This document shows positions 5,107-61,474 of a DNA stretch of 64,000 nt, in pieces. Origin of the DNA: Candidatus Moraniibacteriota bacterium (GTDB lineage Bacteria; Patescibacteriota; Minisyncoccia; Moranbacterales; UBA2206); assembly GCA_049304095.1 (NCBI GenBank), contig JBAQNU010000010.1:19311-83310 (forward strand), read 5' to 3'. A program made the translations under genes and the position numbers. Every line of letters begins with the position of its first letter. The stretch's first letter is position 1. The notes below the pieces were generated by a model, which saw only the letters and a list, made by a program, of their open reading frames with translations, had not been told where the DNA came from and did no database searches.

Positions 5107-5115
5107 GGTATATTT

Positions 5116-8088
5116 ATGCAAGATGAACTGATCATTCGTGGCGCGAGGGAGCACAATCTAAAAAATGTGAACCTTGATCTACCACGGAATAAATTTATTG
5201 TTTTCACGGGGATTTCCGGCTCTGGCAAGAGTACGTTGGCTTTTGATACCATTTTTGCCGAAGGACAACGGCGCTATTTGGAAAGTTTGTCTAGTTATGC
5301 CCGACAATTTTTGGGTCAGATGGGAAAGCCGGAAGTCGATTCGATTGAGGGGCTCAGTCCCGCGATTTCGATTGATCAAAAAGCCGCTTCGCATAATCCG
5401 CGCTCAACCGTGGGAACGGTGACGGAAATTCATGACTATCTGCGCTTGCTCTATGCCAAAATTGGTATCGCACATTGCCCGATCTGCAACCGAGAAATCG
5501 TAAGGCTTTCCACGGATGAGATTGTGGACAGAATTTTGAATATTTGTGATGCAAAAAATAATTGTGCGATTGAAATTTTTTCTCCGATCGTGCGAGAACG
5601 AAAAGGGGAATACTCGACACTTTTGGAAGAAATGTTTCGACGCGGTTTTTCCACCGCAGTGGTCAATGAAAAAAAATATACGTTGGATGAAAAGATCGGG
5701 ACGCGAGTGAAGTTGGAGCGCTATAAAAAACATAATATTGATATTTTAGTTGATAAGGTGGAAATAAATTCTGAGAATATTTCGCGGATTTTTGAAGGTG
5801 TGGAACAGGCGTTGAAATTGTCGAAAGGAATAGTTCGGGTTAAATTTCAAAATCCAAATTTCCAATTTCAAACAAAATCCAAATTTCAAAATTCTAATGA
5901 CAAAAAGGATAAAAAAACAAACGGCAATAAGGCTGAAGAAAAAAAAGAAACTAGTGAGATGATTTTCAATCAGAATTTTTCTTGTCCGATTCACGAAGTC
6001 GATTTTCCTGAGCTCGAGCCACGATTGTTTTCTTTCAATAGTCCCTTTGGCGCTTGTCCGTCTTGTGAAGGTTTGGGCGTGAAAAAGGAAATTGATCCAG
6101 AACTTGTCGTGCCAGATATGAACAAGACCATCGCCGAAGGTGGAATTATGCCTTGGAGTTACAAAAAAAACAACTGGCAGGGGACGATTTTGCGGGCTGT
6201 CACGAATTTCTATCACATTCGTGATAATGTGCGGTTGCGTGATTTGTCGGATGATGATTTTAATACTTTGCTTTATGGCGGACCCGAAGCGGCTGATATG
6301 ATTGCGGAAGAAGATGCCGATGAAATTCCCGTGACTCTGCGCAGCAAAACTGGGTCAAGTTGGAAATACAATATGCGCTGGCGCGGTGTGGTTGGCTATT
6401 TGCAAGATCGTTATCTTAAAACTGATTCCGAAGGTGTGCGCACAGATATTGAAAAATATATGTCGCAAAATCCTTGTTCGACTTGCCTTGGATCACGCTA
6501 TAAAAAGGAAGTTTTGCTTGTGACTGTGGGAAATAAAAATATTCAAGAAGTTTCTATGATCAGCGTGCGAGAGGCTTTGGATTTTTTTCAAAAAATTAAA
6601 TTTAGCAAACGAGAAGAATTGATTGCGAGCAGAATTCTCAAGGAAATTCAAAACCGTCTGGGATTTTTGCAAGACGTAGGACTTGGCTATCTTTCTCTTG
6701 GTCGGGCCGCCAATACTTTGGCAGGTGGCGAATCTCAACGCATTCGTCTGGCTTCTCAGATTGGCTCACAGCTCGTTGGGGTGCTCTATATTCTCGATGA
6801 ACCATCAATCGGTCTTCATGCGCGCGATAACGCCAAATTGCTTTCTACACTTTTACAACTCAGAGATGTGGGAAATACTTTAATTGTGGTGGAACACGAC
6901 GAAGAAACAATGCGCGCGGCAGACTATTTGGTGGACATTGGACCGGGCGCAGGAAAGCATGGCGGCGAAATTGTGGCGCAAGGTTCGCCCCTGGAAGTGT
7001 TGAAAAGTAAGAAATCTTTGACGGCCAAATATTTGCGAGGGGAAATGCAGATTGAAATCCCGGCATATCGCCGACCACTCAAAAACAAAAAAACGCTCGT
7101 GGTGCGGGGAGCGCGCGAGCATAATTTGCAAAATATTACCGTTTCGTTTCCTTTGAAAGTTTTGACCTGCGTGACGGGCGTGTCTGGTTCAGGGAAATCC
7201 ACCCTAGTAGAAGATATTCTCTATAAATCTCTTTCTGCGAAAATCATGCGTTCACTGGAACGGCCCGGGAAACATAGTGAAATTGTTGGCGATCATTATC
7301 TTAACAAAGTGATCATGATTGATCAATCACCGATCGGACGCACACCCAGATCGAATCCAGCGACCTATACCGGACTGTTCACGGCTATTCGCGAACTGTT
7401 TGCTGAAACGCGCGACGCTAAAGCGAAAGGTTATTCTCCGGGAAGATTTTCCTTCAATGTGAAAGGTGGGAGATGCGATAATTGTCAGGGTGATGGATAT
7501 AACAAAATCGAGATGCAGTTTATGCCGGATGTCTATTTGCCCTGCGATGTTTGTTCCGGAAAGCGCTACAATAGTGAAACGCTCAAAGTGAAATATCGTG
7601 ATAAAAATATTGCCGATGTGCTTTCAATGACCATTTCCGAAGCACGCGAATTTTTTGCCAATTTTCACGACATTGCCGACAAGCTAAAAGTCTTGGAAGA
7701 TGTCGGCTTGGGCTACATTCAACTCGGACAATCCGCGACGACGCTCTCTGGTGGAGAAGCGCAACGCATCAAACTTTCCACTGAACTTTCTCGCCGCGCA
7801 ACGGGGGACACGCTCTATATTCTCGACGAACCAACTACAGGCTTGCATTTCGATGACATCAAAAAACTGTTGGGCATTCTTAATCGTTTGGTTGATGCAG
7901 GCAACACTGTCATTGTCATCGAACATAATTTAGACGTAATCAAAACCGCCGATTGGATTATTGATCTCGGACCGGAAGGAGGCAAAGAAGGTGGAAAAGT
8001 GATTGTTTCTGGTACACCAGAAGAAGTGGCCAAGTGGCATAAGGAGAGTTGGACGGGGAGGTATTTAAAAGAATGTCTGAACCACTGA
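5116..8088 (+). CDS. uvrA: excinuclease ABC subunit A
   Basis: Two ABC ATPase modules (GISGSGKST and GVSGSGKST Walker A; LSGGESQR and LSGGEAQR signatures). Zinc-finger cysteines. Conserved N-terminus IRGAREHNLKN. Carries a low-complexity insert KFQNPNFQFQTKSKFQNSNDKKDKK at about 5850-5950. Confidence 0.95.
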   Translation: MQDELIIRGAREHNLKNVNLDLPRNKFIVFTGISGSGKSTLAFDTIFAEGQRRYLESLSSYARQFLGQMGKPEVDSIEGLSPAISIDQKAASHNPRSTVGTVTEIHDYLRLLYAKIGIAHCPICNREIVRLSTDEIVDRILNICDAKNNCAIEIFSPIVRERKGEYSTLLEEMFRRGFSTAVVNEKKYTLDEKIGTRVKLERYKKHNIDILVDKVEINSENISRIFEGVEQALKLSKGIVRVKFQNPNFQFQTKSKFQNSNDKKDKKTNGNKAEEKKETSEMIFNQNFSCPIHEVDFPELEPRLFSFNSPFGACPSCEGLGVKKEIDPELVVPDMNKTIAEGGIMPWSYKKNNWQGTILRAVTNFYHIRDNVRLRDLSDDDFNTLLYGGPEAADMIAEEDADEIPVTLRSKTGSSWKYNMRWRGVVGYLQDRYLKTDSEGVRTDIEKYMSQNPCSTCLGSRYKKEVLLVTVGNKNIQEVSMISVREALDFFQKIKFSKREELIASRILKEIQNRLGFLQDVGLGYLSLGRAANTLAGGESQRIRLASQIGSQLVGVLYILDEPSIGLHARDNAKLLSTLLQLRDVGNTLIVVEHDEETMRAADYLVDIGPGAGKHGGEIVAQGSPLEVLKSKKSLTAKYLRGEMQIEIPAYRRPLKNKKTLVVRGAREHNLQNITVSFPLKVLTCVTGVSGSGKSTLVEDILYKSLSAKIMRSLERPGKHSEIVGDHYLNKVIMIDQSPIGRTPRSNPATYTGLFTAIRELFAETRDAKAKGYSPGRFSFNVKGGRCDNCQGDGYNKIEMQFMPDVYLPCDVCSGKRYNSETLKVKYRDKNIADVLSMTISEAREFFANFHDIADKLKVLEDVGLGYIQLGQSATTLSGGEAQRIKLSTELSRRATGDTLYILDEPTTGLHFDDIKKLLGILNRLVDAGNTVIVIEHNLDVIKTADWIIDLGPEGGKEGGKVIVSGTPEEVAKWHKESWTGRYLKECLNH

Positions 8089-8135
8089 TTAACACTGATT
8101 AAAATGATTTCACTGATTTTTGGAAATAAAAACAC

Positions 8136-8160
8136 GGTCATGCGAGGTTCTTGCATGACC
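8136..8160. terminator. hairpin GGTCATGC-N9-GCATGACC between convergent genes
   Basis: Perfect 8-bp stem read from sequence. Located between the uvrA stop (8088) and the stop of the minus-strand gene (8191). No strong T-run, so low confidence. Confidence 0.3.
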
Positions 8161-8190
8161 GGTGAGTGAAACTTTTGGCTTCTTGAAATG

Positions 8191-8989: not shown

Positions 8990-10267
8990 ATGCAAATGTC
9001 AAGCAAATTAGCGCAAAAATTAAAATCTCTCCCCGCCTCTCCCGGTGTCTATATCTTCAAGAATAAGGCCGGGGCGGTTTTGTATGTGGGAAAAGCGACG
9101 TCGTTGAAGGATCGGGTCGGTTCGTATTTCCAGGGACGTAGTGGTTATGCCCGGCCGATTGAGATGTTTATGGACCAGGTCGCGGATATTGAAGTTCGAA
9201 AAACGGAAACAGTTTTGGAGGCATATATCTTGGAGCAAGAACTGATTAAAAAGTGGCAGCCGAAGTTTAATGCTACAGGGAAAGATGATAAATCATTTTC
9301 TTATGTTGCCATTACAAAAGAAGATTTTCCGCGTATATTATTTTTACGGAAAAGGGAAATGGATCAAGATATTGATATAAAATCAAAATTTAGTAAAATT
9401 TACGGCCCATATGTTTCCAAGAAAAATATTGAAATTGCGCTGAAAATTCTCAGAAAAATTTTTCCCTATCATGCTAAAGTGCAAAAGACAGAGAAGGGTT
9501 GTTTGGATTTTCAGATTGGACTTTGTCCGGGGCCGTATGCTGGAGCAATTTCGAAAGAGGATTATGCCAAAAATATCCGCGGGATTCGGATGATTTTGGA
9601 AGGGAAGAAAAAGACGTTGCTTGCGAAAATGAAAAAAGAAATGTTGGAATTAAGTGAGAAACAGGAATTTGAAAAAGCCGGGAAAGTGCGCAATGCGATT
9701 TTTGCGTTGCAGCATATTCAAGACATAGCACTCATCTCTGAGCGAGATGATAATTTCCAATTTCCAATTTCCAATTTCCAATTTCCAAAAAAATTCAAAA
9801 TTCAAAATTCAAAATTTCGCATCGAGGGTTATGATATTTCGAATATTTCCGGAAAATCCAGCGTGGGGTCGATGGTGGTTTTTGATAATGCAAATGGGGA
9901 AATGCAACCGAACAAAAGCCAGTATCGCAGGTTTAAAATAAAAACTGTGGAAGGTGCGAATGATACAGCGTCGATGGCGGAAGTGCTGGGGCGCAGACTT
10001 GGAAATAATTGGCCGAAACCAGATCTCATAATCTTAGATGGTGGGCAGGGGCATCTGACGGCGGTGCGACGCGTGCTCAAGAATTTTCACCTGGAAATCC
10101 CACTGCTCGCTGTCGCCAAAGGTCCAACGCGCAAAAAACTAGACCGTTATGCTTTTGGCAGTGTGCCGGAAATTTCCGACGAAATTATCGAACGCGTCCG
10201 CGACGAAGCGCATCGTTTTGCGATTACTTATCATAAGAAATTGCGGAAAAAGAGGTTTATGGAGTAG
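8990..10267 (+). CDS. uvrC: excinuclease ABC subunit C, short form lacking the C-terminal (HhH)2 domain
   Basis: GIY-YIG N-terminus (GVYIFKNKAGAVLYVGKATSLKDRV), a UVR domain (LSEKQEFEKAGKVRNAIFALQ), an RNase-H-like endonuclease domain (RIEGYDISNISG...DGGQGHL), then EAHRFAITYHKKLRKKR followed by a stop. Only 425 aa. Contains an in-frame (TTCCAA)4/(AATTCAAA)3 repeat giving NFQFPISNFQFPKKFKIQNSKF. Confidence 0.9.
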   Translation: MQMSSKLAQKLKSLPASPGVYIFKNKAGAVLYVGKATSLKDRVGSYFQGRSGYARPIEMFMDQVADIEVRKTETVLEAYILEQELIKKWQPKFNATGKDDKSFSYVAITKEDFPRILFLRKREMDQDIDIKSKFSKIYGPYVSKKNIEIALKILRKIFPYHAKVQKTEKGCLDFQIGLCPGPYAGAISKEDYAKNIRGIRMILEGKKKTLLAKMKKEMLELSEKQEFEKAGKVRNAIFALQHIQDIALISERDDNFQFPISNFQFPKKFKIQNSKFRIEGYDISNISGKSSVGSMVVFDNANGEMQPNKSQYRRFKIKTVEGANDTASMAEVLGRRLGNNWPKPDLIILDGGQGHLTAVRRVLKNFHLEIPLLAVAKGPTRKKLDRYAFGSVPEISDEIIERVRDEAHRFAITYHKKLRKKRFME

Positions 10268-11407: not shown

Positions 11408-14215
11408 ATGCCAAAAAACAAACCCAAGGATCGGAGCAAAATTATCGTGCGTGGTGCGCGGGTGAATAATTTGAAAAATATCGATGTGGAGATTCCACGA
11501 GACAAATTAGTCGTTATTACTGGGCTTTCTGGATCGGGTAAATCCTCCTTGGCCTTTGATGCGATTTATGCGGAAGGCAATCGGCGCTATCTGGAAGGGA
11601 TGTCGAGCTACGCGACGCAGTTTCTAGATGTTTCAGCCAAACCGGATGTGGACAAAATTGAAAATCTCACTCCGACCATTTCGATTGATCAAAAAAGCAT
11701 CGCGCGCAGTCCGCGTTCGACTGTTGGGACACTGACGGAAATCTATGATTATCTGCGTGTGCTCTATGCCAAAGTTGGCGTGCCACATTGTCCGCATTGT
11801 AAAACGCCTTTGGAAAAAATCACTAACGCAGAAGTTTTGGAGGATATCCTCAATTCTCCCGACAAAACCAATATTGCAATCCTGGCAAAATTAAATGGCA
11901 AGGATCAAAGTCTTCGGGAAAGACTAAAGAGCGTGAGTCAACTAGGTTATGCACGAATTCGTTTGGGTGGAAAAATAATGTCACTTTCGGAAGCTTTGGC
12001 GCAAGACGATATTGAAAGAATGTCTCCATGCAACGCAGAGATTGTGATTGATCGGATTGTGTTGAATCATAAGAACCCCGACCAAGAAAGAATTTTGGAT
12101 TCAATTGAAACTGCTTTCAAATTAGGCAAGGGTATGGCAGTGGTGGTGAAGGACAATGAAACAGAAAAAACATATAATCGTGATTTTGTGTGCAAGAAAT
12201 GTTTTTTTGAAGTGGTGGATATCACGCCGAAACACTTCTCTTTTAATAGCCCGGAAGGAGCTTGCCAGCACTGTTCCGGTCTTGGTGTGATTAAGGAAAT
12301 CGATGAAGATTTGCTCATTCCCAATAAAAATCTTACTCTTGCTGAAGGAGCAATTTTGTCGTGGAATAAATCTGGCGGTCGGTCAAGCGTGACGGCGAGT
12401 GGGAACAATATTCTCAAAATGTTGGGGGATAAATATGGTTTTTCTATCGACATCCCGGTAAAAAAAATCAGTCGTGAACATCTAAATATTGTGCTCTATG
12501 GTTCCAATGATCCTAAGATTATTTTTGAGGGTGTTATTCCGACGATGAAAAAGAGATATGAAGAGTTGAATTCCAACTATCTCAAAAGCGAAATTGAGAA
12601 ATATATGATTGAGAAAATCTGTCCGCTTTGCTTAGGAAAGCGACTGCGAGAAGAATATCTCTCCGTGCTGGTTGCTGGAAAATCAATTGATCAAGTTGTT
12701 GATATGTCTCTCGTTGACTTTACTCAATTTTTGGAAGCATTAGAAAAAGCCAACATTAGCTCAACTAGGAAAAATATAATTTTGCCGCTTATCAAAGAAA
12801 TGAAAGCGCGAAGCGTGGCTCTCGCTAACGTAGGCTTGGGCTATCTGGCTCTTGCGCGTAGTGCCAATTCGATTTCTGGCGGAGAAGGACAACGCATCCG
12901 TCTGGCAACGCAAATTGGTTCAGAACTTTCCGGCATTACCTACGTATTGGATGAGCCATCGATTGGACTACACAACCGCGATACGGAAAAATTGATCTCA
13001 ACAATGGAGGAACTGCGCGAAGCAGGCAATTCTCTTATTACCGTGGAACATGACGAGCAAATTATCCGCTCAGCTGATTGGATTATTGACATGGGGCCAG
13101 GCGCTGGTGAAGATGGCGGAGAGGTGATTTTTTCTGGCGATCTTCCAAAACTTTTGAAATCAAAAACTTTGACGGCGCAGTATTTGAATGGCAAAAAACA
13201 GGTGGGAAATAAAAAGAAAGCGCGCAAAGGTTTGGGGAAAATGATCAAAGTTCAAGGGGCAATGGAACATAACTTGAAAAATATTGATGTGAGTTTTCCG
13301 TTGGGAAAATTCATCTCGCTGACTGGTGTTTCCGGCTCTGGAAAATCAACTTTAGTTTCCGGCATTTTGTCTAAAGCTCTAGCAAAATATTTTTTCAATA
13401 CCAAAGAAGCTCCCGGACGTCACAAGAAAATTAGCGGAATGGAACATATCGACAAAGTGATCAGCATTAACCAAGCACCGATTGGTCGTACGCCCCGATC
13501 GAACGCGGCGACTTACACTGGAGTTTTCTCACTGATTCGCGAATTGTTTGCGGAGATGCAAGAAGCGCAGACGCGTGGCTATGACGCTAGTCGCTTTAGT
13601 TTTAACATGAAAGGTGGGCGTTGCGAGGATTGTCAGGGTGAAGGCAAAAAGAAAATTGAGATGCATCTTTTGCCAGATGTCTATGTGCCTTGCGAAACTT
13701 GTGGTGGCGCGAAATACAATCAAAGAACATTGGAGATTGAATATCGCGGAGTAAACATTGCCGAGGTGCTTGATATGAGCGTCAGCTATGCGCATGTATT
13801 TTTCAAAAATTCCAAATTGGTGATGGAAAAATTAGCCACGCTAGAAAAAGTTGGCTTGGGATATTTGAAACTGGGACAAAGCGCGGTGGATCTTTCTGGC
13901 GGAGAAGCGCAAAGAATCAAGTTAGCCACGGAACTAGCCAGACGTGCAACAGGAAAAACACTCTATATTTTGGATGAGCCAACAATCGGACTGCATTTTG
14001 AAGATATTCGAAAATTGCTGGGAGTGCTTGATGCTCTCGTTGACAAAGGCAACACAGTTTTGGTGGTAGAGCACAATGTGGATGTGATTCGTAATTCCGA
14101 TTGGGTGATTGACTTGGGACCAGAAGGTGGAACTGGGGGCGGAGAAATTGTGTTTGAAGGAACACCCGTGGATCTCAAAAAATGCAAGAGAAGTTGGACG
14201 GGGAAATATTTGTAG
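11408..14215 (+). CDS. uvrA: second full-length UvrA paralog (excinuclease ABC subunit A family)
   Basis: Walker A motifs GLSGSGKSS and [14 protein letters not shown] signatures, and [11 protein letters not shown]-terminus. 935 aa with a UvrB-binding-region equivalent present. Nucleotide-level divergence from the first uvrA argues against an assembly duplicate. Confidence 0.9.
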
Positions 14216-14262
14216 TCTTTGAACTATGATTTGTCTGATTAAATGAAAACTATGATGCGTTT

Positions 14263-15258
14263 TTGTGCATTATCTTTCTTATGCCTAATCCACTTTCTCA
14301 AAATATCTTAGCCACTATTTGTTATTATGATGTCTTGGATTATCCTTTGACTGTTTTTGAATTGTGGAAATATTTGATTAGTGATCCTGCCTACGCTGAA
14401 GCTTCTGCCTACGCTAAAGCTTCGGCAGACAAGCCGGCAGGCAAGTGTGAGACAAAAAAAGTAATACTTGCGGAGGTTGTGTCTGAGTTGGAAAATGAAG
14501 CTTTGCAAAAAAACATTGAAAAACACCTAGGCTTCTATTTTCTAGCTGGTCGCAAAAGTTTGGTGGCGCAAAGATTGGAGCGCAATAAGCTGGCGGAAAA
14601 AAAATATCGCCGAGCGCGAAGAGCCGTTTGGTTTTTGCGCTTCGTTCCTTTTGTGCGCTCGGTGGCTGTGGTGGGGAGACTAGCGATGAAAAATGTGGAA
14701 ACTCAAAGTGATTTGGATTTGCTCATTGTGCTTAAAAGCGGGCATATTTTTACTGGTCGAATGCTGGTAACAGCTTTTTTGCAAGTCTCGGGGATGCGTC
14801 GGCATGGCAGAAAAATTGCTAACCGCATTTGTCTCAATCATTTTTTGACTGATGAATTCAATGTGGGCGTGCAAGATCTTTTTTCAGCGCACGAATATAC
14901 TTTTGCTCGGGTGATTTTCAAGCCGGAAGTTTTTGGGCGCCTCTATCAAAAAAATAATTGGATTGAGAAATATAAGCCAAACTATTTGCCAGAAAAAGAT
15001 AATTTAAAAATTATCAAAGACAGTTTTATTTCTCGATGTAGTAGAAATATTTTGGAAAAATGCTTGGCTTTTCCAGCTCTGGAAAAATTTTTGCAAAAAA
15101 TCCAAACGGAAAAAATTGCCAAAAATGCACTGACAGAGAAAAAAGGCGCCATGATTATTTGCAGTAGTGATGAGCTGGCTTTCTGGCCCAATTTTGAAAA
15201 TCAAGGGCCGCGGGTTTTTGAATTATTTAAAGAGCGGATGGATAGATTACGTAATTAA
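14263..15258 (+). CDS. hypothetical protein with minimal nucleotidyltransferase-like motif
   Basis: VGRLAMKNVETQSDLDLLIV fits the [GS]x9-13 DhDh pattern of Pol-beta-fold NTases. A tandem 18-nt duplication encodes AYAEAS/AYAKAS. Otherwise unrecognised. Confidence 0.35.
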   Translation: MCIIFLMPNPLSQNILATICYYDVLDYPLTVFELWKYLISDPAYAEASAYAKASADKPAGKCETKKVILAEVVSELENEALQKNIEKHLGFYFLAGRKSLVAQRLERNKLAEKKYRRARRAVWFLRFVPFVRSVAVVGRLAMKNVETQSDLDLLIVLKSGHIFTGRMLVTAFLQVSGMRRHGRKIANRICLNHFLTDEFNVGVQDLFSAHEYTFARVIFKPEVFGRLYQKNNWIEKYKPNYLPEKDNLKIIKDSFISRCSRNILEKCLAFPALEKFLQKIQTEKIAKNALTEKKGAMIICSSDELAFWPNFENQGPRVFELFKERMDRLRN

Positions 15259-21442: not shown

Positions 21443-21444
21443 AA

Positions 21445-21560
21445 TTTTATAATTTTTAATTTTGTAATTTTATAAATAAATCTAAATTTTTTAATGTTTA
21501 AAACATTTGGAAATTAGAAAATTATTTAAAAATTGGAAATTAAAAATTAAAAATTTAGAG
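21445..21560. repeat. AT-rich intergenic inverted-repeat element, copy 1
   Basis: Shares AATTTTGTAATTTT-TAAATAAAT-TAAATT, TTAAAACATT and AATTATTTAAAAATT blocks with 32886-32990. Both copies lie between a stop codon and the next start. Confidence 0.4.
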
Positions 21561-29140: not shown

Positions 29141-30439
29141 ATGTTTAAATACAAAAAAACCATTGCTATTATATTGATTCTGATTATTGCCGGAGGCTAT
29201 TTTTTCTATGCCAAGTCTAAAAAGCCCAAAGTGGAATATACCACGGCGACAGTGGAAAAAGGCCATCTCGCGCAAACAGTTTCAGCGACTGGGGATCTCA
29301 GAGATGATTCGGAAATTGTGCTCAACTTTGAGTTGGGCGGAAGGATTAGCAAGGTTTTCATTAAAAAAGGCAACAAGGTGGCTGCTGGTGATTCGATTGC
29401 GATGCTGGATAATGCCAATCTGTCTGGTCAAGTTGCGGTCGCCAAAGCAACGCTGGACAAAGCGGTGGCTGATGCTGGGGCAAATAATGATGCGGTTCGC
29501 GAAGCGGATGTGGCAGTGGATAATGCTGATGATTTTTTGGATGAAACGGAAAAATTGGAAAAACAAAAAGTGGACGCTGCCGAGACGGCGCTCGATAATG
29601 CCGAGGACTATTATTCTGACGCGCTGGATTTCTATAATGATGATCCGGACACAACTACGAAGTTGACTTTGACAACAGCCCTAAACAGCAAAAAAGCGGC
29701 TGAGGAAGCGTTGGATACTGCCAAAAAATCTCGAGATTTGGCGATTACTTCCGCGGACAACTCTTTGGACGCGGCGAAAGCGAAATTAAAAACGACCCAG
29801 TCGGATTTCACGCTCAATTCCAAGAACGCCTCAGTGGACAATGCCAAAGCCAACTATGACATCGCGCTCAATAATCTTTCCAAGGCCGTCCTCAAAGCGC
29901 CGGTAACTGGTACGATTGTAGAAGTGAACAACAAGGTGGGAGAAATCTTAGGCACTGGCGTGATTAAGGAATCCTTTGCGCGCATCATTGCCGATGACTA
30001 TATTATTGAATCGAATATTCCCGAATCGGATATTGTAAAACTAAAACTGGGTCAAAAGGCCAAGGTTACTTTTGATGCACTGCCAGCCGGAGATGAATTT
30101 GACGCGGAGCTCATTGAAATCAATCCAGCGGAAACGGTTATTCAAGACGTAGTCTATTATGGGATAAAATTAAAACTAACGGCGGTTGATCAAAGACTGA
30201 AAGTGGGAATGAGTGTGAACATTGATGTGGCAACAAACGAAAAGAGTGAAATTCTCATGATCCCGCTTCGGGCGATAAAACTAAACAATGGAGAAAAATC
30301 AGTTGAAATCTTGAAAGCGGACAACACAACCGAAGAAGTGAAAATCACCACCGGACTGGAAGGCGACGGGGGAATGGTGGAAGTGAAATCAGGCGTGAAA
30401 GAAGGGGATAAGGTCGTTACTTTTACAAAAGATATTTAA
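29141..30439 (+). CDS. HlyD/MacA-family periplasmic adaptor (membrane fusion protein)
   Basis: N-terminal TM, long alanine-rich coiled-coil, and beta-barrel/lipoyl-like segments (VTGTIVEVNNKVGE). Precedes the MacB-like ABC genes. Confidence 0.7.
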   Translation: MFKYKKTIAIILILIIAGGYFFYAKSKKPKVEYTTATVEKGHLAQTVSATGDLRDDSEIVLNFELGGRISKVFIKKGNKVAAGDSIAMLDNANLSGQVAVAKATLDKAVADAGANNDAVREADVAVDNADDFLDETEKLEKQKVDAAETALDNAEDYYSDALDFYNDDPDTTTKLTLTTALNSKKAAEEALDTAKKSRDLAITSADNSLDAAKAKLKTTQSDFTLNSKNASVDNAKANYDIALNNLSKAVLKAPVTGTIVEVNNKVGEILGTGVIKESFARIIADDYIIESNIPESDIVKLKLGQKAKVTFDALPAGDEFDAELIEINPAETVIQDVVYYGIKLKLTAVDQRLKVGMSVNIDVATNEKSEILMIPLRAIKLNNGEKSVEILKADNTTEEVKITTGLEGDGGMVEVKSGVKEGDKVVTFTKDI

Positions 30440-30445
30440 TTATCA

Positions 30446-30542
30446 GAACCACTGATTCGCACTGATTTTCCTGATTGCACGTGATTAATGTCAGATTCTA
30501 AGTTCAGTGAAATCAGTGTACTCATGTGATAATCAGTGGTTC
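30446..30542. repeat. iteron-like/MITE-like element: five tandem about 10-nt CACTGATT-type repeats closed by a 12-bp inverted terminal repeat (GAACCACTGATT ... AATCAGTGGTTC)
   Basis: Read directly from sequence. Related partial copies at 8077-8120 (CTGAACCACTGATT AACACTGATT ... CACTGATT spanning the uvrA stop) and 31613-31640 (an inverted copy across the ABC ATPase stop / permease start). Confidence 0.45.
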
Positions 30543-30629
30543 AGACAAATGAAAAAGCACATCTATGTTGTTCGTCGCGATTTTTCGCTGACGCATAAAT
30601 ATGCTTTTTATGGAGACATCAACATAACT

Positions 30630-30800
30630 TTAGCGTCCTTTGATTTTATCAGGTAATGTTAATGGCTCCCCACAAATCACGCAATGCGTGGAAAAATTCT
30701 CGCGATTATTTGTGGGCTCAAAGTTATAACTTAGTTTGTCGGTGCAGTTATTGCACCTTACCATCATTTCTCCTATCGGGACAAATAATTTGTAAGTCAT
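30630..30800 (-). CDS. small zinc-ribbon protein (56 aa), absent from the ORF track
   Basis: Minus strand with a strong SD (AAAGGAGGAAAGCT) 7 nt before the ATG. Translation is MTYKLFVPIGEMMVRCNNCTDKLSYNFEPTNNRENFSTHCVICGEPLTLPDKIKGR, with two CxxC pairs. The local palindromes encode these Cys pairs. Confidence 0.45.
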   Translation of the reverse strand: MTYKLFVPIGEMMVRCNNCTDKLSYNFEPTNNRENFSTHCVICGEPLTLPDKIKGR

Positions 30801-30885: not shown

Positions 30886-31614
30886 ATGTCAAACCCCCTA
30901 ATCCAAGTCCAAAATTTGTGCAAGACCTATTCTAATGACGGTGTGGACACGCGGGCGCTTTGTGGTGCGACTTTTGACATCCAAAAAGGCGAATTCATTT
31001 CTATTATGGGTCCAAGTGGTTCGGGCAAATCAACTCTCATGCAAATGCTGGGTTTTTTGGACCGGCCGACGGAAGGCAAATATTTTTTTGAAGGTCGCGA
31101 TACCTTCACGTTTGATGATGATACGCTGGCCAAAATTCGCAACAAAAAAATCGGTTTTGTCTTTCAATCTTTCAACCTACTTTCTCGCACAACCGTGTTT
31201 GAAAATGTCGAGTTGCCTTTGCTCTATGACGAGAAGATTGCAAAGAATAATGAAAAAAAAGTGCTGGACGCGCTCTTGGCAGTAGGTATGGAACATCGGG
31301 CCAACTATTTTTCTAATCAACTGTCTGGCGGAGAAAAACAGCGAGTGGCAATAGCGAGAGCTCTAGTTAATGATCCCGAAGTGATTTTTGCTGATGAGCC
31401 AACGGGAAATTTAGATTCCAAATCTGGTCTTCAAGTGATGCGGATTTTGCAAAAATTGAACGACAGTGGTCGCACAGTCATTTTGGTCACGCACGAAACC
31501 TATACCGCTGAGCACGCCAAGAGAATTATCTATGTCAAAGACGGAAAAATTATCGCCGATGATCCGGTCAAAAATCGACGGATTGCGGAGGGGGAGAATG
31601 AGCTTTTGAAATAA
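30886..31614 (+). CDS. ABC transporter ATP-binding protein (MacB/LolD-like)
   Basis: Walker [10 protein letters not shown], signature [15 protein letters not shown], Walker [14 protein letters not shown]-loop VTHE. Confidence 0.9.
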
Positions 31615-31617
31615 TCA

Positions 31618-32883
31618 GTGCGAATCATGTGGTTCAGATTTATGAATATCCTAAACCCCATCAAAATCTCACTAAAAAATCTTCTGGCGGCCAAGCTCCG
31701 CTCTTTTTTGACGATCTTGGGAATTATTATCGGCATTGCTTCAGTGGTGGTGGTAATGGCGATTGGTGGTAGTGCGCAAAAATTAGTGCTCAGTCAGGTT
31801 TCGGGCATCGGATCAAATTTAATTGGAGTGCTTCCTGGCGCGTCAGATGAAAAAGGCCCACCAGCATCAGCGATGGGTATTGTGGTCACAACACTGAAAT
31901 ACGCTGATCTGGTTGCCCTAAAAGAAAAAAAGAATGTGCCCAATTTGGCTGATGTTACGGCCTATGTCAGTGGTTCGGCGACAGTCAAAAACGCCAATGG
32001 TTCATTTCAATCCAGCTATCAAGGAGTGAGTGCCAGTCTTTTGGATGTGGAAGATATCAAGTTGCAATCTGGTCGCTTTTTTCTGAGCGAAGAGGACACA
32101 AACCTGGCGCATGTGGCTGTGCTCGGATCTAATCGCGCAACTGATCTTTTTCCTAATGTTGATCCAATTGGAAAAAGCATCACACTCAAAGATGTCAATT
32201 TCACCGTCGTGGGCGTTCTCTCTGCGCGTGGTTCGGTCGGTTTTTCCAACACAGATGACATGGTCTATGTGCCGCTTTTTAGCGCGCAAAAGCTTTTACT
32301 TGGCATCGATTATCTCAATTTTATGCGCATCAAAGTTGATTCTAAGGACAATCTCGATCGCACCGTGGCGGATGTCAAAGCCACGCTCCGCGAACAGCAC
32401 AAAATCAAAGCCGATGCCAGCGATGACTTTTCTGTGAGAAATAGTGCGCAGGCAATTGAGTTGCTCACAACTGTCACCAATGTGCTCAAATATTTTCTCG
32501 CAGCAGTAGCCGCCATTTCGCTCATTGTTGGCGGAGTGGGGATTATGAATATTATGCTCATTTCCGTCAATCAGCGGATCAGGGAAGTGGGACTGCGAAA
32601 AGCGGTGGGAGCCAAGAATATCCATATTATCTCCCAGTTTCTTATTGAAGCGATTTTCATCACACTTATTGGTGGAATTTTGGGCATAATTTTGGGAATT
32701 GTCGTCGCGTTTTTGGCTGCGATAATTATCAAGGGCCTTGGCTATGATTGGGAGTTTATCATAACTTTCAGCTCAATGCTTCTGGCCACATCTGTTTCTG
32801 TCGCCATTGGTATTATTTTTGGAATATATCCTGCCCGCAAAGCTTCAAAGATAAGCCCGATGGAAGCTCTTAGATATGAATAA
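31618..32883 (+). CDS. ABC transporter permease, FtsX/MacB-type
   Basis: N-terminal TM, large periplasmic MacB-PCD-like domain, C-terminal FtsX 3-TM bundle (GGVGIMNIMLISVNQRIREVGLRKAVGA). Confidence 0.85.
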   Translation: MRIMWFRFMNILNPIKISLKNLLAAKLRSFLTILGIIIGIASVVVVMAIGGSAQKLVLSQVSGIGSNLIGVLPGASDEKGPPASAMGIVVTTLKYADLVALKEKKNVPNLADVTAYVSGSATVKNANGSFQSSYQGVSASLLDVEDIKLQSGRFFLSEEDTNLAHVAVLGSNRATDLFPNVDPIGKSITLKDVNFTVVGVLSARGSVGFSNTDDMVYVPLFSAQKLLLGIDYLNFMRIKVDSKDNLDRTVADVKATLREQHKIKADASDDFSVRNSAQAIELLTTVTNVLKYFLAAVAAISLIVGGVGIMNIMLISVNQRIREVGLRKAVGAKNIHIISQFLIEAIFITLIGGILGIILGIVVAFLAAIIIKGLGYDWEFIITFSSMLLATSVSVAIGIIFGIYPARKASKISPMEALRYE

Positions 32884-32885
32884 TT

Positions 32886-32990
32886 TTTAAATTTTGTAAT
32901 TTTTAAATAAATATAAATTTCTAATTTTTAAAAATTAAAACATTAAAAAAATTATTTAAAAATTATAAAATTACAAAATTACAAAATTTT
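32886..32990. repeat. AT-rich intergenic inverted-repeat element, copy 2
   Basis: Homologous to 21445-21560. Terminal inverted arms AAATTTTGTAATTT / AAATTACAAAATTT. Confidence 0.4.
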
Positions 32991-32996
32991 TCTGTT

Positions 32997-34250
32997 ATGC
33001 ATGAACTAATCATTTCAATCAAACTGGCTTTCAAGAATCTTCGTTCCAATTTGGGACGGACGATTTTGACTTTGGTTGGCGTGGTAATTGGCGTAATTGC
33101 GGTAATTTTGGTGAGCTCATTGGGACAAGGTGTGAAGGATTTTATTTTGAACCAAGTCGGCACTTTTGGCACAGATCTTATTCAGATTGAAGTGAAGGTG
33201 CCGGCGACTGGCAAGGCCTCGACACAAAATGCGGTTGGTCAAGCAACAGGCATTCAAATCACAACTATGACAATTGCGGACGCAAAAAATATCAGCAAGT
33301 TGCCCAACGTGGCGGCGACTGCCCCGGGCACAATGACGCAGGAATTAGCTAGCTATCAAAATACCAACAAGCGCGTTTTTCTGTTTGGAGTCGGGGCGGG
33401 GTACAGTCAAATTGATCAAAGCACGAAATTGTCAGAAGGCGCATTTTTTTCCGCTAGTGATGATGAGAGTTTGGCGCAAGTGGCGGTGATTGGCAGTAAT
33501 ATCCGCGATGCTTTTTTCGGCGACGATGACCCGGTGGGAAAAAGCATTAAAATTAAAAATCAAAACTATAAAATAGTCGGACTGGCCAGCGAGCGGGGCG
33601 CAGTGGCCGGATTCAACTATGATGACCTGATCTACATTCCGGTGCAAACGATGCAAAAAAAGATTTTGGGTATTGATTATATTCGTTTTATTATGGTTAA
33701 GGTGAAAGATGAAAAAAAGATTGATGTGACGGCATCTGATCTCATGGCGGAGATGCGACGACTGCATAAAATTACTGATCCAAGCAAGGATGATTTTGGT
33801 GTCACTTCCATTAAAGAAGCCCAAGCGACGATTGAAAATGTTTTTGCCACAATCAATATTTTGCTTCTCGCTTTGACTTCCATTTCGCTCATTGTTGGCG
33901 GAGTGGGGATTATGAATGTGATGTATGTGGCCGTGGCGGAACGAACATTTGAGATTGGCCTGCGCAAAGCCGTTGGCGCGAAGTCAAAAAATATTTTGCG
34001 TCAGTTTCTCTGGGAAGCAATCTTCATCACTTTTTTTGGCGGAATGGTGGGAATAATTTTGGGCTATCTTTTGCTTTTCGTGCTTTCCTATTTCGTGGCC
34101 TCTTTTGGTTATCCAATCCGTTTTGGGTTAAGTGCCAGTTCGATTAGTCTGGCTGTCGGTTTTTCTGTCGCCACTGGCGTTATTTTTGGCTATTATCCAG
34201 CCCGCGCAGCTTCGAGACTTAGCCCGATGGAAGCATTGCGAAAGGACTAG
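32997..34250 (+). CDS. ABC transporter permease, FtsX/MacB-type (second paralog)
   Basis: Same architecture as the previous gene (GGVGIMNVMYVAVAERTFEIGLRKAVGA). Confidence 0.85.
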   Translation: MHELIISIKLAFKNLRSNLGRTILTLVGVVIGVIAVILVSSLGQGVKDFILNQVGTFGTDLIQIEVKVPATGKASTQNAVGQATGIQITTMTIADAKNISKLPNVAATAPGTMTQELASYQNTNKRVFLFGVGAGYSQIDQSTKLSEGAFFSASDDESLAQVAVIGSNIRDAFFGDDDPVGKSIKIKNQNYKIVGLASERGAVAGFNYDDLIYIPVQTMQKKILGIDYIRFIMVKVKDEKKIDVTASDLMAEMRRLHKITDPSKDDFGVTSIKEAQATIENVFATINILLLALTSISLIVGGVGIMNVMYVAVAERTFEIGLRKAVGAKSKNILRQFLWEAIFITFFGGMVGIILGYLLLFVLSYFVASFGYPIRFGLSASSISLAVGFSVATGVIFGYYPARAASRLSPMEALRKD

Positions 34251-42281: not shown

Positions 42282-43793
42282 ATGAACAAGGCGAAAATAT
42301 TTTTGTTATTTTCTTTGAGTTTTATTTTGGGAATTTTTCTGGCGTCATTTTTTTATCCCATTTTTTTGCCATCGATTTCCTTGTGTTTAGTGATGCTTTT
42401 GGCCATAATTATCTTTTTTGTTTTCTATAAAAATAAAATCGCAACACTGGTTTCTTTGGCGCTTTTGATGTTTGCTTTTGGTTTTTATCTTACTCAGAAA
42501 AAACTGGATAAAATAAACTCATTTAAAGATGCGCCGGAGGAGGTAGAATTTTCCGGTCGGGGGATAATTGTAGCGGAGCCGAAAATAAAAGATAGTAAAC
42601 AGGATTTAATTTTCTCTGCCTACGCTAAGGCTTCGGTAGATAAATCGTCTGATAATATAAACTACAGCATTCTCATTCAAGAAAGCGCTTTTGAAAATTT
42701 TGCTTATGGCGAAGAAATTGATTTGAAATGCAAGTTGGAGTTGCCGAAAAATATGGCGGACAGCGATTTTGACTATAAGGCCTATTTGGCCAGGCAAGAT
42801 ATTTTTTATCTTTGTCAAAAACCTAGCATTGAAAAGACGGGTAAAAATTTGGGCAATCGTTTTTATGGCGCGGTCGTGGCGCTCAAAAATAAATTTAGCG
42901 CGAACATCTATGCGCTCATTCCTTCGCCGGAAGCGGCACTACTCGAAGGCCTCATTATTGGCGGAAGCGGAAATTTGTCCAAGGAAATTCAAGCCAATTT
43001 TTCGCGCACCGGAATGACGCACATCGTGGCGGTTTCTGGATATAACATAACAATTGTGGCGCAGTATCTGATGCTCATCGGACTTTTTTTGGGTCTTTGG
43101 CGGCGACAAGCGTTTTGGTTTGCCCTCATTGGCATTTGGATTTTCATTCTCATGACGGGTTTTCCGGCGTCGGCAATTCGCGCTGGGGTGATGGGCACAC
43201 TGCTTCTTTATGCGATGAAAAATGGGCGGCTGGCGAACGCCGGTAATGCCATTCTTTTTTCCGCTGTCGTGATGCTTTTTTGGAATCCACTGCTTCTCCG
43301 CTATGACGTCGGATTTCAACTGTCTTTTTTGGCCACTCTTGGCATTGTCTATTTCTATCCAATATTTGAAAAATATTTTGGTGAAAAGTTGAAAAAATAT
43401 CCCGATATTTTTTCGTTCGTGGGAGAAATTCTGTTTATGTCGCTCTCAGCTCAGATTCTAGTTTTGCCGATAATTCTGTTTAATTTTCAAACGCTTTCGC
43501 TTATTTCTCCTGTGACGAATATCTTAGTCCTGCCAATTTTACCCATCACAATGCTTATTGGCTTTCTGGCTGTTGCCACCAGTTTTATCTTTCAGCCACT
43601 TGCTATTTTCTTTTCTTGGCTAAGTTATCTTCCGTTACGCTATGAAATTTCTGTTATCAACTATTTTGCTAATCTCAAGTTTTCTGCTCTTGTAGTCGGC
43701 CTTTCGTGGCAAGGAATGGTGGTTTGGTATATAATTATAGTAGGCGCGATTTATAAGTCTAAAAAAATCCAAACCAAGAAATATGATGAATAA
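42282..43793 (+). CDS. comEC: ComEC/Rec2 competence channel protein, N-terminal (DUF4131 + competence domain) part only
   Basis: Multi-TM protein with the MTHIVAVSGYNITIV and LSFLAT motifs of the ComEC competence domain. No MBL domain; it ends at 503 aa. Confidence 0.75.
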   Translation: MNKAKIFLLFSLSFILGIFLASFFYPIFLPSISLCLVMLLAIIIFFVFYKNKIATLVSLALLMFAFGFYLTQKKLDKINSFKDAPEEVEFSGRGIIVAEPKIKDSKQDLIFSAYAKASVDKSSDNINYSILIQESAFENFAYGEEIDLKCKLELPKNMADSDFDYKAYLARQDIFYLCQKPSIEKTGKNLGNRFYGAVVALKNKFSANIYALIPSPEAALLEGLIIGGSGNLSKEIQANFSRTGMTHIVAVSGYNITIVAQYLMLIGLFLGLWRRQAFWFALIGIWIFILMTGFPASAIRAGVMGTLLLYAMKNGRLANAGNAILFSAVVMLFWNPLLLRYDVGFQLSFLATLGIVYFYPIFEKYFGEKLKKYPDIFSFVGEILFMSLSAQILVLPIILFNFQTLSLISPVTNILVLPILPITMLIGFLAVATSFIFQPLAIFFSWLSYLPLRYEISVINYFANLKFSALVVGLSWQGMVVWYIIIVGAIYKSKKIQTKKYDE

Positions 43794-55258: not shown

Positions 55259-55269
55259 CAAATAAAAAA

Positions 55270-55652: not shown

Positions 55653-55678
55653 AATTATTTTCCCATATCTAGCAAGTT

Positions 55679-61449: not shown

Positions 61450-61474
61450 CTTATAGAATCACAGTAGAATCCTT

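What the first reader, a model, noticed from the sequence alone, without database searches (positions are those of the whole stretch)
30440..30545. Iteron-like array of CACTGATT repeats with 12-bp terminal inverted repeats; related half-copies at the 3' ends of uvrA and the ABC ATPase gene
What the sequence shows:
- 30446-30542 reads GAACCACTGATT CGCACTGATT TTCCTGATT GCACGTGATT AATGTCAGATT ... AATCAGTG ... AATCAGTGGTTC.
- That is five direct approximately 10-nt repeats in helical register, closed by an inverted copy of the first 12 nt. The architecture is MITE-like or iteron/operator-like.
- The same 14-mer CTGAACCACTGATT followed by two more ACTGATT units spans the uvrA stop codon (8077-8120).
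- An inverted 24-nt copy spans the ABC ATPase stop / permease start (31613-31640).

These are either a small mobile repeat family that inserts at gene ends, or binding sites of one DNA-binding protein placed at three operon junctions.
Basis: seen in the sequence. Interest (0 to 1): 0.55.

Follow-up and report, generated by a model that had tools for sequence, protein, structure and literature searches.

The report
Gene-less relic of a nuclease-carrying repeat
The 103-base palindrome is a gene-less copy of a widespread, apparently undescribed repeat family whose complete copies carry a small nuclease gene of unknown function (GxxExxY) between the same two arms, which hints that this large protein family belongs to a new kind of selfish DNA element.

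Summary
Window 30443-30545 is a 103-nt palindrome made of two inverted ~45-nt arms. Each arm starts TCWGAACCACTGATT and holds four phased ~10-nt units with a (CAC)TGATT core. Single arms lie at the uvrA stop (8076-8120) and in the ATPase/permease gap (31613-31638).

It is not a local operator. The same arms occur in many Moranbacteria/Parcubacteria genomes and in other phyla, as palindromes, single arms and wider pairs.

The key result is that complete copies (~0.5 kb) carry a 128-aa GxxExxY / PF13366 gene, a Cas4/RecB-like PD-(D/E)XK nuclease, between the arms:
- All 15 metagenome loci chosen by protein similarity alone (>=74% identity) have both arms.
- More distant homologues, including Bacteroides finegoldii, have arms of the same design with different unit sequences that follow the protein tree.
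- The source contig carries its own complete copy.
- A relative has a complete copy exactly where the window keeps a truncated arm.

Best reading: a non-autonomous (MITE/REPIN-like) derivative whose arms are binding arrays for the element's nuclease. Binding, cleavage and the mode of movement are inferred, and no target duplication was found. I found no description of this association in the searchable literature.

The parts
30443..30545 (.). Gene-less palindromic element (103 nt), TCAGAACC...GGTTCAGA. It lies between the MacA-like gene (stop 30437-30439) and a convergent small ORF, upstream of the ABC ATPase gene.
   Evidence: It has the same architecture as 20-30 palindromes of 85-110 nt in other genomes.
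30443..30487 (+). Left arm, 'D' type: TCAGAACCACTGATT cg CACTGATT tt CCTGATT g CACGTGATT
   Evidence: nhmmer E 5e-13.
30488..30500 (.). Loop (ATGTCAGATTCTA). This is the position that the GxxExxY gene occupies in complete copies.
30501..30545 (-). Right arm, 'G' type, read on the minus strand: TCTGAACCACTGATT at CACATGAGTA CACTGATT t CACTGAAC
   Evidence: nhmmer E 6e-15. The D+G pairing is the same as in L005, L045, L082 and L106.
8076..8120 (+). Single four-unit arm ('U' type) that overlaps the end of uvrA. It encodes the last codons L-N-H and the TGA stop (8086-8088), and is followed by a hairpin at 8137-8161.
   Evidence: An arm sits at the same junction in L037 and L097.
31613..31638 (-). 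Truncated single arm (terminus plus two units) that fills the gap between the ABC ATPase stop and the MacB-type permease start (ATG 31642).
   Evidence: It is orthologous to the permease-side arm of a complete GxxExxY element in L041 (1550-2051).

Best explanation
The 103-nt palindrome and the two single arms are gene-less derivatives of a compact element, about 0.5 kb long. Its complete form is: arm, then a 128-aa GxxExxY (PF13366, Cas4/RecB-like PD-(D/E)XK nuclease) gene, then an inverted arm.

Shown here:
- Family membership of the window's arms.
- The gene-arm unit.
- Matching divergence of protein and arm units.
- A complete cognate copy on the same contig.
- A series at orthologous sites running from complete element to gene-less pair to single arm.
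- Near-identical copies at unrelated sites within one genome.

Inferred:
- Each arm is an array of four binding sites, one per helical turn, for the element-encoded nuclease.
- The nuclease acts at the invariant terminus TCWGA|ACC or between the arms.
- Gene-less copies are moved or kept uniform in trans by resident GxxExxY proteins, much as MITEs depend on a transposase or REPINs on a RAYT.
- Whether movement is by cut-or-copy transposition or by homing-type gene conversion is open.

In the window the copies are probably passive passengers. They fill intergenic gaps and supply a stop codon to uvrA.
For: Observation:
- Chance is excluded.

Dispersed family:
Most were Moranbacteria/Parcubacteria, and 113 of 163 core matches carry the full four-unit arm, with positions outside the search pattern 95-100% conserved.

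Gene association:
- 6 of 7 GxxExxY genes in those loci abut arms.
- The complete units in L033 and L068 can be read base by base.
- Independent test: of 80 metagenome loci chosen by protein alone, all 15 with >=74% identity have a + arm upstream and a - arm downstream at E 1e-5 to 1e-14.
- 83 of 89 distinct homologues have a terminus-like motif on at least one side, and 66 on both.
- Inverted-flank alignment scores have a median of 39.5, against about 22 in two controls.

Matching divergence of protein and arms:
- Unit cores change together in all units of both arms (TGATT, CAGAT, CTGAA, GGATT) and follow the protein tree. 59 of 65 nearest neighbours share the class, and 0 of 2000 permutations reach the observed difference.
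- Bacteroides finegoldii and Bernardetia genes (37% identity) are flanked by CACAGAGG-type arrays.

Same genome:
- The source contig carries a complete copy with CACTGATT arms at positions 5637-6152.

Orthologous sites:
- L041 has the complete element where the window has the truncated arm.
- In six species the site after a PilB-like gene holds a complete element, a gene-less pair or a single arm.

Recent copying:
- 97% and 94% identical palindromes sit at different loci with unrelated flanks.

Protein:
- It passes the curated HMM cut-offs.
- Residues E35, D74, K86 and Q98xxxY102 are invariant and E84 nearly so.
- The AlphaFold model has pLDDT 90.9, and its best PDB matches are Cas4, AddAB/AdnAB and other PD-(D/E)XK nucleases.

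Protein sites rather than a hairpin:
- There are no compensatory pairs in 22 palindromes.
- The two arms of a palindrome are of different conserved types.
Against: - No target-site duplication was found. The apparent duplication of the central W of TCWGA goes with arm type.
- No clean empty site was found.
- Binding and cleavage are untested. A 128-aa RecB/Cas4-like domain has no evident separate DNA-binding module, and no transposase of this type is known.
- Single arms at orthologous sites keep a perfect 15-nt terminus in species whose flanking genes are only 67-83% identical. This suggests selection or continual homogenisation rather than simple decay, and would also fit a host function.
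- Copy number in the source genome is modest: 6 arms in about 96 kb.
- The gene could be cargo, or a homing gene that invades pre-existing palindromes, rather than their mobiliser.
Confidence: 0.6

Rival explanations
1. Homing model. The gene-less palindromes are the natural target site. GxxExxY is a homing-type endonuclease gene that cuts between the arms and is copied into the loop by repair. The palindromes themselves spread or persist by some other means.
For: - The gene always sits exactly where the loop is, tightly abutted by both arms.
- The same site occurs with and without the gene.
- No target duplication was found.
- Protein and arm specificity diverge together.
- Homing enzymes with a PD-(D/E)XK fold exist (own knowledge: I-Ssp6803I).
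Against: - It does not explain how palindromes and single arms reach new sites.
- It does not explain why single arms stay conserved.
- The arms offer only about 45 nt of imperfect homology.
- The two arms are of unlike types, so the target is not a true symmetric site.
Confidence: 0.17
2. Host-exapted protein-binding arrays. The arms now serve the cell, for example as roadblocks or 3'-end and operon-junction signals bound by a GxxExxY or another protein, and are kept by selection at particular gene ends.
For: - Arms sit at the same junction in three species (uvrA) and six species (PilB-like gene), with termini better conserved than the adjacent coding DNA.
- There is a strong bias to the 3' ends of genes: 63% against 17% at random positions, and single arms show 47 stop-side against 17 start-side.
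- The repeats have helical phasing.
Against: - The junctions share no common function (DNA repair, efflux, glycolysis, secretion).
- Occupancy varies between relatives.
- Arm types differ at the same orthologous site.
- Arms flank a selfish-looking gene in every close homologue.
- The bias to gene ends is also expected from tolerance of insertions in compact genomes, because arms carry TGA stops in several frames.
Confidence: 0.15
3. RNA-level element. The palindrome acts as a transcript hairpin, either a bidirectional terminator or an mRNA stabiliser, between the convergent MacA-like and small-ORF genes.
For: - The predicted hairpin is much more stable than shuffled sequence (z -4.3 and -5.5).
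- It lies between convergent genes.
- Many single arms are followed by terminator-like hairpins.
Against: - Rfam gives no match.
- There is no T-tract terminator call in the element.
- RNAalifold on 22 palindromes gives a covariation term of +0.3, and none of the 23 pairs shows a compensatory change. Variable spacers are not complementary.
- Partner arms are only 70% alike, less than same-type arms in other genomes at 83%.
- Single arms and arms 400 nt apart cannot form the hairpin.
Confidence: 0.06
4. Chance similarity or low-complexity sequence.
For: The window has many AT-rich low-complexity intergenic stretches.
Against: - Exact 12-mers occur 3 times against 0 expected.
- HMM hits reach E of about 1e-13 to 1e-15.
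- The family recurs in more than 100 loci.
Confidence: 0.01

Closest known systems
MITEs of bacteria (e.g. Correia/CREE elements of Neisseria, RUP of Streptococcus pneumoniae, ERIC/IRU) (own knowledge)
   Same: - About 100-nt non-coding elements with terminal inverted repeats.
- Dispersed in intergenic DNA at gene ends, and able to overlap stop or start codons.
- Related to longer gene-carrying copies with the same ends.
- Present or absent at a given site in different relatives.
   Different: - The arms are arrays of four phased direct repeats rather than a simple inverted repeat.
- The two arms are of distinct conserved types.
- No target-site duplication was found.
- The gene-carrying partner encodes a 128-aa PD-(D/E)XK nuclease, not a DDE, HUH, serine or tyrosine transposase.
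REP/REPIN sequences with their RAYT gene (own knowledge: Nunvar et al. 2010; Bertels & Rainey 2011)
   Same: - A small gene flanked by inverted copies of the repeat.
- Many gene-less doublets and singlets near the 3' ends of genes.
- No target duplication.
- Repeat and protein diverge together.
- Long persistence at orthologous sites.
   Different: - RAYT is an HUH/Y1 enzyme related to IS200/IS605, whereas here the gene is PF13366.
- REPs are 20-40-nt hairpins with a GTAG head that act as single-stranded DNA. These arms show no selection for pairing and look like double-strand binding arrays.
Ends of Tn7 and phage Mu (own knowledge)
   Same: - Several direct-repeat binding sites for the element's protein inside each end.
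- Left and right ends differ.
- There is a distinct conserved terminal sequence.
- Tn7 also uses a PD-(D/E)XK nuclease (TnsA).
   Different: - No DDE transposase (TnsB or MuA) is present.
- There is no 5-bp duplication.
- The element is 0.5 kb rather than 14-37 kb.
- The units are 9-11 nt rather than about 22 nt.
Rpn/YhgA (Transposase_31) and PDDEXK_2 'putative transposase' PD-(D/E)XK families (PMC3424549 table; own knowledge)
   Same: PD-(D/E)XK nucleases in many copies per genome, suspected of promoting DNA rearrangement.
   Different: - They are a different family and about 300 aa long.
- No defined inverted-repeat ends or gene-less derivatives have been described for them.
- PMC3424549 lists PF13366 itself as function 'Unknown'.
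Iterons and ParR/parC-type centromeres (own knowledge)
   Same: Helically phased 10-11-bp direct repeats that are bound cooperatively.
   Different: - There is no replication or partition gene context.
- There are dozens of copies per genome at unrelated junctions.
- The arrays come as an inverted pair around a nuclease gene.

Membership tests
MITE (miniature inverted-repeat transposable element) | Short, non-coding element with terminal inverted repeats | tested here: met
   It is 103 nt long with termini TCAGAACCACTGATT / AATCAGTGGTTCAGA. Only spurious ORFs of <=29 aa lie wholly inside it (a 49-aa GTG ORF, 30507-30656, merely starts inside the right arm).
MITE (miniature inverted-repeat transposable element) | Many dispersed copies, with copies at unrelated sites in one genome | tested here: met
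   There are 4 arms in the window plus 2 elsewhere on the contig, and more than 100 loci in other genomes. Copies 97% and 94% identical have unrelated flanks.
MITE (miniature inverted-repeat transposable element) | Target-site duplication flanking the element | tested here: not met
   The only candidate is the central W of TCWGA. It is the same on both sides in 24 pairs and complementary in 23, and it goes with arm type. No longer direct repeat was seen.
MITE (miniature inverted-repeat transposable element) | Longer autonomous relative with the same ends that encodes a transposase | tested here: inconclusive
   A longer relative with the same ends exists, including on the same contig. Its only gene is a PD-(D/E)XK nuclease whose transposase activity is unknown.
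MITE (miniature inverted-repeat transposable element) | Presence/absence polymorphism at orthologous sites | tested here: met
   At the ATPase/permease junction there is a truncated arm (window), a complete element (L041) and no arm (L073). At the enolase/iPGM junction L045 has a palindrome and the window has none. A clean empty site was not recovered.
REPIN-RAYT system | Associated gene is a RAYT (HUH/Y1 transposase of the IS200/IS605 type) | tested here: not met
   The gene between the arms is TIGR04256 / PF13366 (E 2e-39 and 9e-38) and has a Cas4/RecB-like fold.
REPIN-RAYT system | Gene flanked by inverted repeat copies, with gene-less doublets and singlets dispersed in the genome | tested here: met
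REPIN-RAYT system | Repeat is a short hairpin whose pairing is maintained | tested here: not met
   None of 23 pairs shows a compensatory change. The arms of one palindrome are 70% alike and of different types.
Replication iterons | Array lies in an origin next to a rep gene, with an AT-rich unwinding region, and is unique per replicon | tested here: not met
   The neighbours are efflux, DNA-repair and glycolysis genes. There are several copies per contig.
Tn7/Mu-like transposon ends | Multiple internal binding repeats per end, and unlike left and right ends | tested here: met
   There are four units per arm. The D, G and U arm types pair unlike with unlike.
Tn7/Mu-like transposon ends | DDE transposase encoded between the ends | tested here: not met
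   The only gene between the ends is the 128-aa PF13366 protein.
GxxExxY / PDDEXK_3 protein family (gene of the complete copies) | Passes the curated HMM cut-offs, has conserved nuclease residues and has a PD-(D/E)XK fold | tested here: met
   Scores are 134.7 bits (cut-off 35) and 129.7 bits (cut-off 22). E35, D74, K86, Q98 and Y102 are invariant and E84 is >=90% conserved. The model has pLDDT 90.9 and its top PDB matches are Cas4 and other PD-(D/E)XK nucleases, with weak E-values of >=1e-3.
Known RNA families / intrinsic terminators | Match to a curated RNA model, or a GC stem followed by a T-tract, with covariation | tested here: not met
   Rfam matches only a tRNA elsewhere in the window. 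There is no terminator call in 30443-30545 and no covariation.

The most novel reading that the evidence does not exclude
GxxExxY (PF13366/TIGR04256) proteins are a family of about 13,000 clusters at 50% identity with no known function. They may be the enzymes of a new class of minimal mobile or self-maintaining element, about 0.5 kb long: one Cas4/RecB-like nuclease gene between two unlike arrays of phased 9-11-nt repeats. These elements would seed genomes across many phyla with gene-less palindromes and single arms. That would make them the smallest autonomous prokaryotic elements, working by a mechanism (PD-(D/E)XK nuclease only, no target duplication) unlike any known transposase. A parallel architecture around a 23S_rRNA_IVP four-helix-bundle gene on the same contig hints at a wider class.
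Probability: 0.45. Interest if true: 0.88.

Novelty: new variant of a known kind. Interest (0 to 1): 0.76.

Why it matters
- It gives a concrete, testable role to a very large protein family of unknown function. The family has 12,892 clusters at 50% identity, is labelled 'Unknown' in the PD-(D/E)XK survey, and is mentioned only in passing in 3 papers of the searchable library.
- It explains a class of conserved intergenic palindromes in streamlined CPR (candidate phyla radiation) genomes, where almost every base is expected to matter.
- If the nuclease mobilises or homogenises the arms, this is a new way for DNA to spread within genomes, and a possible source of sequence-programmable small nucleases.
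- For annotation, the arms rewrite gene ends: uvrA here ends in three arm-encoded codons and an arm-encoded stop. They also fill operon junctions, so they affect gene calling and possibly expression.

Tried and rejected
- **Outward promoter in the arms.** The termini often lie 3-8 nt from an outward ATG (27% against 18% at random). The consensus scan found nothing convincing in the element, so I dropped this.
- **Target duplication.** I took the central W of TCWGA as a candidate 1-5-nt duplication. It is the same in 24 pairs and complementary in 23, and it goes with arm type. Rejected.
- **Clean empty site.** The L004/L013/L047 alignment was not alignable at the insertion point. All-against-all synteny gave occupied or variant sites only.
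- **Known RNA family.** Rfam returned nothing. RNAalifold showed no covariation.
- **TIGR-Tas or CRISPR-like array.** This was prompted by a literature hit. The variable stretches are 1-4 nt, too short for guides. Rejected by inspection.
- **Viral contigs.** No relatives of this GxxExxY subfamily were found.
- **Solved structure by sequence.** None was found.
- **Literature.** I searched for the motif strings, for GxxExxY/PDDEXK_3/PF13366/TIGR04256, for CPR palindromic repeats and for the 23S rRNA IVS protein. Nothing describes the association.
- **TGA recoding.** I considered an alternative genetic code for the uvrA 'stop'. It is not supported: the paralogue ends three codons earlier with TAG, and the orthologues end at the same arm-encoded TGA.
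- **Abutting termini.** I looked for circle-junction-like GGTTC..GAACC. The only case is within a Desulfonema tandem array.

Full report
**1. The observation**

- The exact 12-mer GAACCACTGATT occurs three times in the window, at 8079+, 30446+ and 30531-. None of 100 dinucleotide-preserving shuffles contains it.
- The phased TGATT-N5-TGATT-N4-TGATT pattern occurs twice, against 0.07 expected.
- The window is contig JBAQRM010000004.1 (173 kb) of assembly GCA_049295935.1. NCBI labels this genome Candidatus Moraniibacteriota, a member of the candidate phyla radiation (CPR).

The element spans 30443-30545 and consists of two inverted arms of about 45 nt around a 13-nt loop.
- Each arm begins TCWGAACCACTGATT.
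- Three further units follow at 9-11-nt spacing, each with the core (CAC)nTGATT.
- Both strands fold into a long imperfect hairpin (z -4.3 and -5.5).
- One single full arm overlaps the end of uvrA (8076-8120). The uvrA stop TGA at 8086-8088 is the TGA of CAC-TGA-TT.
- One truncated two-unit arm (31613-31638, minus strand) fills the 27-nt gap between the ABC ATPase stop and the MacB-type permease start (gene calls).

**2. A dispersed family, not a local operator**

I scanned one representative genome per species for CWGAACCACTGATTNNCAC.
- Most hits are in Moranbacteria, Parcubacteria and Paceibacteria genomes assembled from metagenomes, often several contigs per genome.
- Other hits are in Desulfonema magnum, Saprospiraceae, Cloacimonadota, Ignavibacteria, LCP-89 and bins labelled Bdellovibrionales.
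- Of 163 exact core matches, 113 continue into the full four-unit arm. Columns outside the search pattern are 95-100% conserved (third-unit TGATT, fourth-unit CAC), while the 1-3-nt spacers are nearly random.
- An HMM of these arms finds exactly four arms in the window.

The arms occur in three forms: palindromes of 85-110 nt, pairs 120-500 nt apart, and single arms (49 pairs and 80 single arms).

**3. Complete copies carry a GxxExxY nuclease gene**

Several single arms sat just upstream of an ORF starting M..Y...KYYKSD. This ORF is a GxxExxY protein:
- TIGR04256, 134.7 bits against a cut-off of 35.
- PF13366 PDDEXK_3, 129.7 bits against a cut-off of 22.

In the motif-selected loci, 6 of 7 GxxExxY genes abut arms. 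In L033 and L068 the whole unit can be read: TCWGAACC arm, ATG, 128 codons, stop, inverted arm ending GGTTCWGA, about 480-500 bp in total.

Those loci had been chosen by the motif, so I made an independent test. I chose 80 metagenome loci by protein similarity alone.
- All 15 with at least 74% identity have a + arm 37-111 nt upstream and a - arm 47-142 nt downstream, at nhmmer E-values of 1e-5 to 1e-14.
- Background arm density in the source contig is about one per 16 kb, so this cannot be coincidence.

**4. Protein and arms diverge together**

More distant homologues (59-73% identity) match the arm HMM weakly or not at all. Read directly, though, they are flanked by inverted arms of the same design.
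- The outer terminus is conserved: (T)GTCTGAACC, GTCAGAACC or GTCTTAACC.
- Three or four units follow at 9-11-nt spacing, and their cores differ between lineages: CACAGAT, CACTGAA, CAGGATT, or ATGATT with AGGATT.
- Within one element, all units of both arms carry the same variant.
- 83 of 89 distinct genes have a terminus-like motif within 220 nt on at least one side, and 66 on both.
- The unit class follows the protein tree. 59 of 65 nearest protein neighbours share the class, and no label permutation in 2000 reaches the observed within- versus between-class difference.
- In cultured bacteria at 37% protein identity the design persists with other units. Bacteroides finegoldii has TTCACCACAGAGGACGCAGAGGACACGGAGGA against TTCACCACAGAGGACACAGAGGTCACAGAG, and Bernardetia has CACAGAGA units.

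A concerted change of eight sites that tracks the protein is what one expects if the element's own protein reads them. This step is inference.

**5. Link to the window**

The source contig has its own complete copy at contig positions 5637-6152 (protein P0006, 84% identical to the L041 protein).
- Its left arm reads TCAGAACCACTGATTCTCACTGATTATACTGATTACACTGAT.
- Its right arm is interrupted by a 21-nt GC hairpin.

Synteny with relatives places the window's copies in context.
- **ATPase/permease junction.** Moranbacteria UBA4824 (L041) has a complete GxxExxY element (TAA-TCAGAACC ... GGTTCTG-ATG). The window keeps only the permease-side arm, truncated at a TAATCAG microhomology. L073 has no arm there.
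- **MacA/ATPase junction.** L073 has a single arm that fills the 52 nt from stop to start, and L041 has an arm pair. The window has the palindrome plus about 340 extra nt that carry a convergent small ORF.
- **uvrA.** The window, L037 and L097 (81-83% amino-acid identity) all end ...L-N-H-TGA, encoded by CTGAACCACTGA. The paralogue ends three codons earlier.
- **Enolase/iPGM junction.** L045 has a palindrome where the window has a different AT-rich palindromic array.
- **After a PilB-like gene.** In six species the stop codon is followed at once by the terminus. Two species have the complete element, two have a gene-less pair, and two have a single arm followed by the host terminator. This looks like a decay series.

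**6. Signs of movement, and what is missing**

- Within single genomes, palindromes at different loci are 97% (L104) and 94% (L047) identical, including loop and spacers. Their flanks are unrelated.
- Arms sit at gene ends. 63% have an inward-reading ORF whose stop lies at or in the terminus, against 17% at random positions. The peaks fall at the arm's own TGAs (+10, +2) and at -3/-4.
- Single arms face a stop codon 47 times and a start side 17 times.
- I found no target-site duplication. The central W of TCWGA looked duplicated in short palindromes (20 same, 9 complementary) but showed the reverse in long pairs (4 against 14). W goes with arm type: G arms are mostly TCT, D and U arms mostly TCA.
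- I did not recover a clean empty site.

**7. Protein sites rather than a hairpin**

- RNAalifold on 22 palindromes gives a covariation term of +0.3. None of the 23 predicted pairs shows a compensatory change, and all pairs lie in invariant cores.
- The two arms of a palindrome belong to different conserved types. Among 20 palindromes there are D+G and G+U pairs but never D+D or G+G. Partner arms are 70% alike, while arms of the same type in other genomes are 83% alike.
- Upstream and downstream arms of gene-carrying copies also differ systematically.
- Rfam and the terminator scan find nothing in the element.

**8. The protein**

- No solved structure matches by sequence.
- An AlphaFold model of P0006 is confident (pLDDT 90.9).
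- Its best PDB neighbours are Cas4 (4ic1), TT1808, AddAB/AdnAB nuclease domains, an alkaline exonuclease and other PD-(D/E)XK proteins, though all with weak E-values of 1e-3 or higher.
- E35, D74, K86, Q98 and Y102 are invariant and E84 is nearly so in 49 sequences. These are the E, D, ExK and QxxxY motifs of RecB-family nucleases (own knowledge), so the enzyme is probably active.
- The genes are mostly co-oriented with their neighbours (50:13 upstream, 49:15 downstream), which is consistent with expression by read-through.
- The family is large: 12,892 clusters at 50% identity at E<=1e-3.

**9. Interpretation**

The best-supported reading is that the window's palindrome and single arms are non-autonomous remnants of GxxExxY elements. 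The arms would be phased binding arrays for the element's nuclease.

The remaining uncertainty is mechanistic.
- The system may work by transposition-like movement, by homing into palindromes, or by REPIN-like maintenance.
- Single arms at orthologous sites keep perfect termini in species whose flanking genes are only 67-83% identical. This points to continual homogenisation or to a host function.

**10. Known or new**

Full-text searches found only passing mentions, and PF13366 is listed as 'Unknown'. The searches covered:
- GxxExxY, PDDEXK_3, PF13366 and TIGR04256
- the motif strings
- CPR palindromic repeats
- the 23S rRNA IVS protein

Within the limits of that library the association appears undescribed. 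The closest known systems are bacterial MITEs, REPIN-RAYT and Tn7/Mu-type ends. The element fails a defining feature of each: target duplication and a recognised transposase for MITEs, an HUH enzyme and a maintained hairpin for REPIN-RAYT, and a DDE transposase for Tn7/Mu.

Noticed in passing
L200:4793-5309 (source contig JBAQRM010000004.1, outside the window): A 23S_rRNA_IVP (four-helix-bundle) gene at 4869-5228 is flanked by inverted arrays of 8-nt units, (AGAGTTAG)n upstream and (CTAACTCT)n downstream. This is the same 'small gene between inverted repeat arrays' design with a different gene family and different units.
   Followed up: partly
window 21443-21556, 32876-33002, 9759-9821, 5843-5897: AT-rich palindromic or direct arrays of about 8-nt units (AATTTTGTA, AATTTCCA) fill intergenic gaps. 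At the enolase/iPGM junction the window has such an array where relative L045 has a CACTGATT palindrome. They may be gene-less relatives of another array family.
   Followed up: partly
window 30630-30800 (-): A 56-aa CxxC...CxxC (zinc-ribbon-like) ORF converges on the palindrome. It has a near-consensus promoter (TTGACA-16-TATTAT, 30892-30865) and an AGGAGG ribosome site. The whole ~340-nt segment is absent from relatives L041 and L073, where the arm abuts the ATPase start.
   Followed up: partly
L200:6113-6133; window 14386-14432 and 42615-42643; also L021, L073, L127: A small GC-rich hairpin repeat (CCTGCCTACCGGCAGGCAGG and variants) is inserted inside the terminal unit of the right arm of the source contig's GxxExxY element. 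Similar hairpins occur in arms of other genomes and at two places in the window.
   Followed up: no
window 14213-14258 (+): Directly after the TAG stop of the second uvrA paralogue comes GTCTTTGAACTATGATTTGTCTGATTAAATGAAAACTATGAT. It resembles a degenerate arm of another subfamily (compare L184: TGTCTTGAACATGATTTGTATGATT). This is weak and is not detected by the HMM.
   Followed up: partly
window 55185-61619: A tRNA gene (55185-55258) is followed by an exact 43-nt copy of its 3' half (55300-55342). An exact 83-nt direct repeat (55339-55421 and 61537-61619) brackets about 6 kb that holds KilA-N, an ISL3 transposase and a 1145-aa LysM protein. This looks like an integrated element with attachment-site repeats.
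   Followed up: no
L040:3222-4300 (Desulfonema magnum chromosome): Palindromes of the same family (CACTGATT/CACGGATT/CACAGATT units) form a head-to-tail tandem array with a period of about 192 nt.
   Followed up: no
window 8076-8120 versus L037 and L097; also L024, L123, L098, L103, L010, L054: Arms at the same orthologous junction are of different arm types in different species: U, G and D at the uvrA stop. Meanwhile the 15-nt terminus stays identical. This suggests replacement or gene conversion rather than simple vertical decay.
   Followed up: partly
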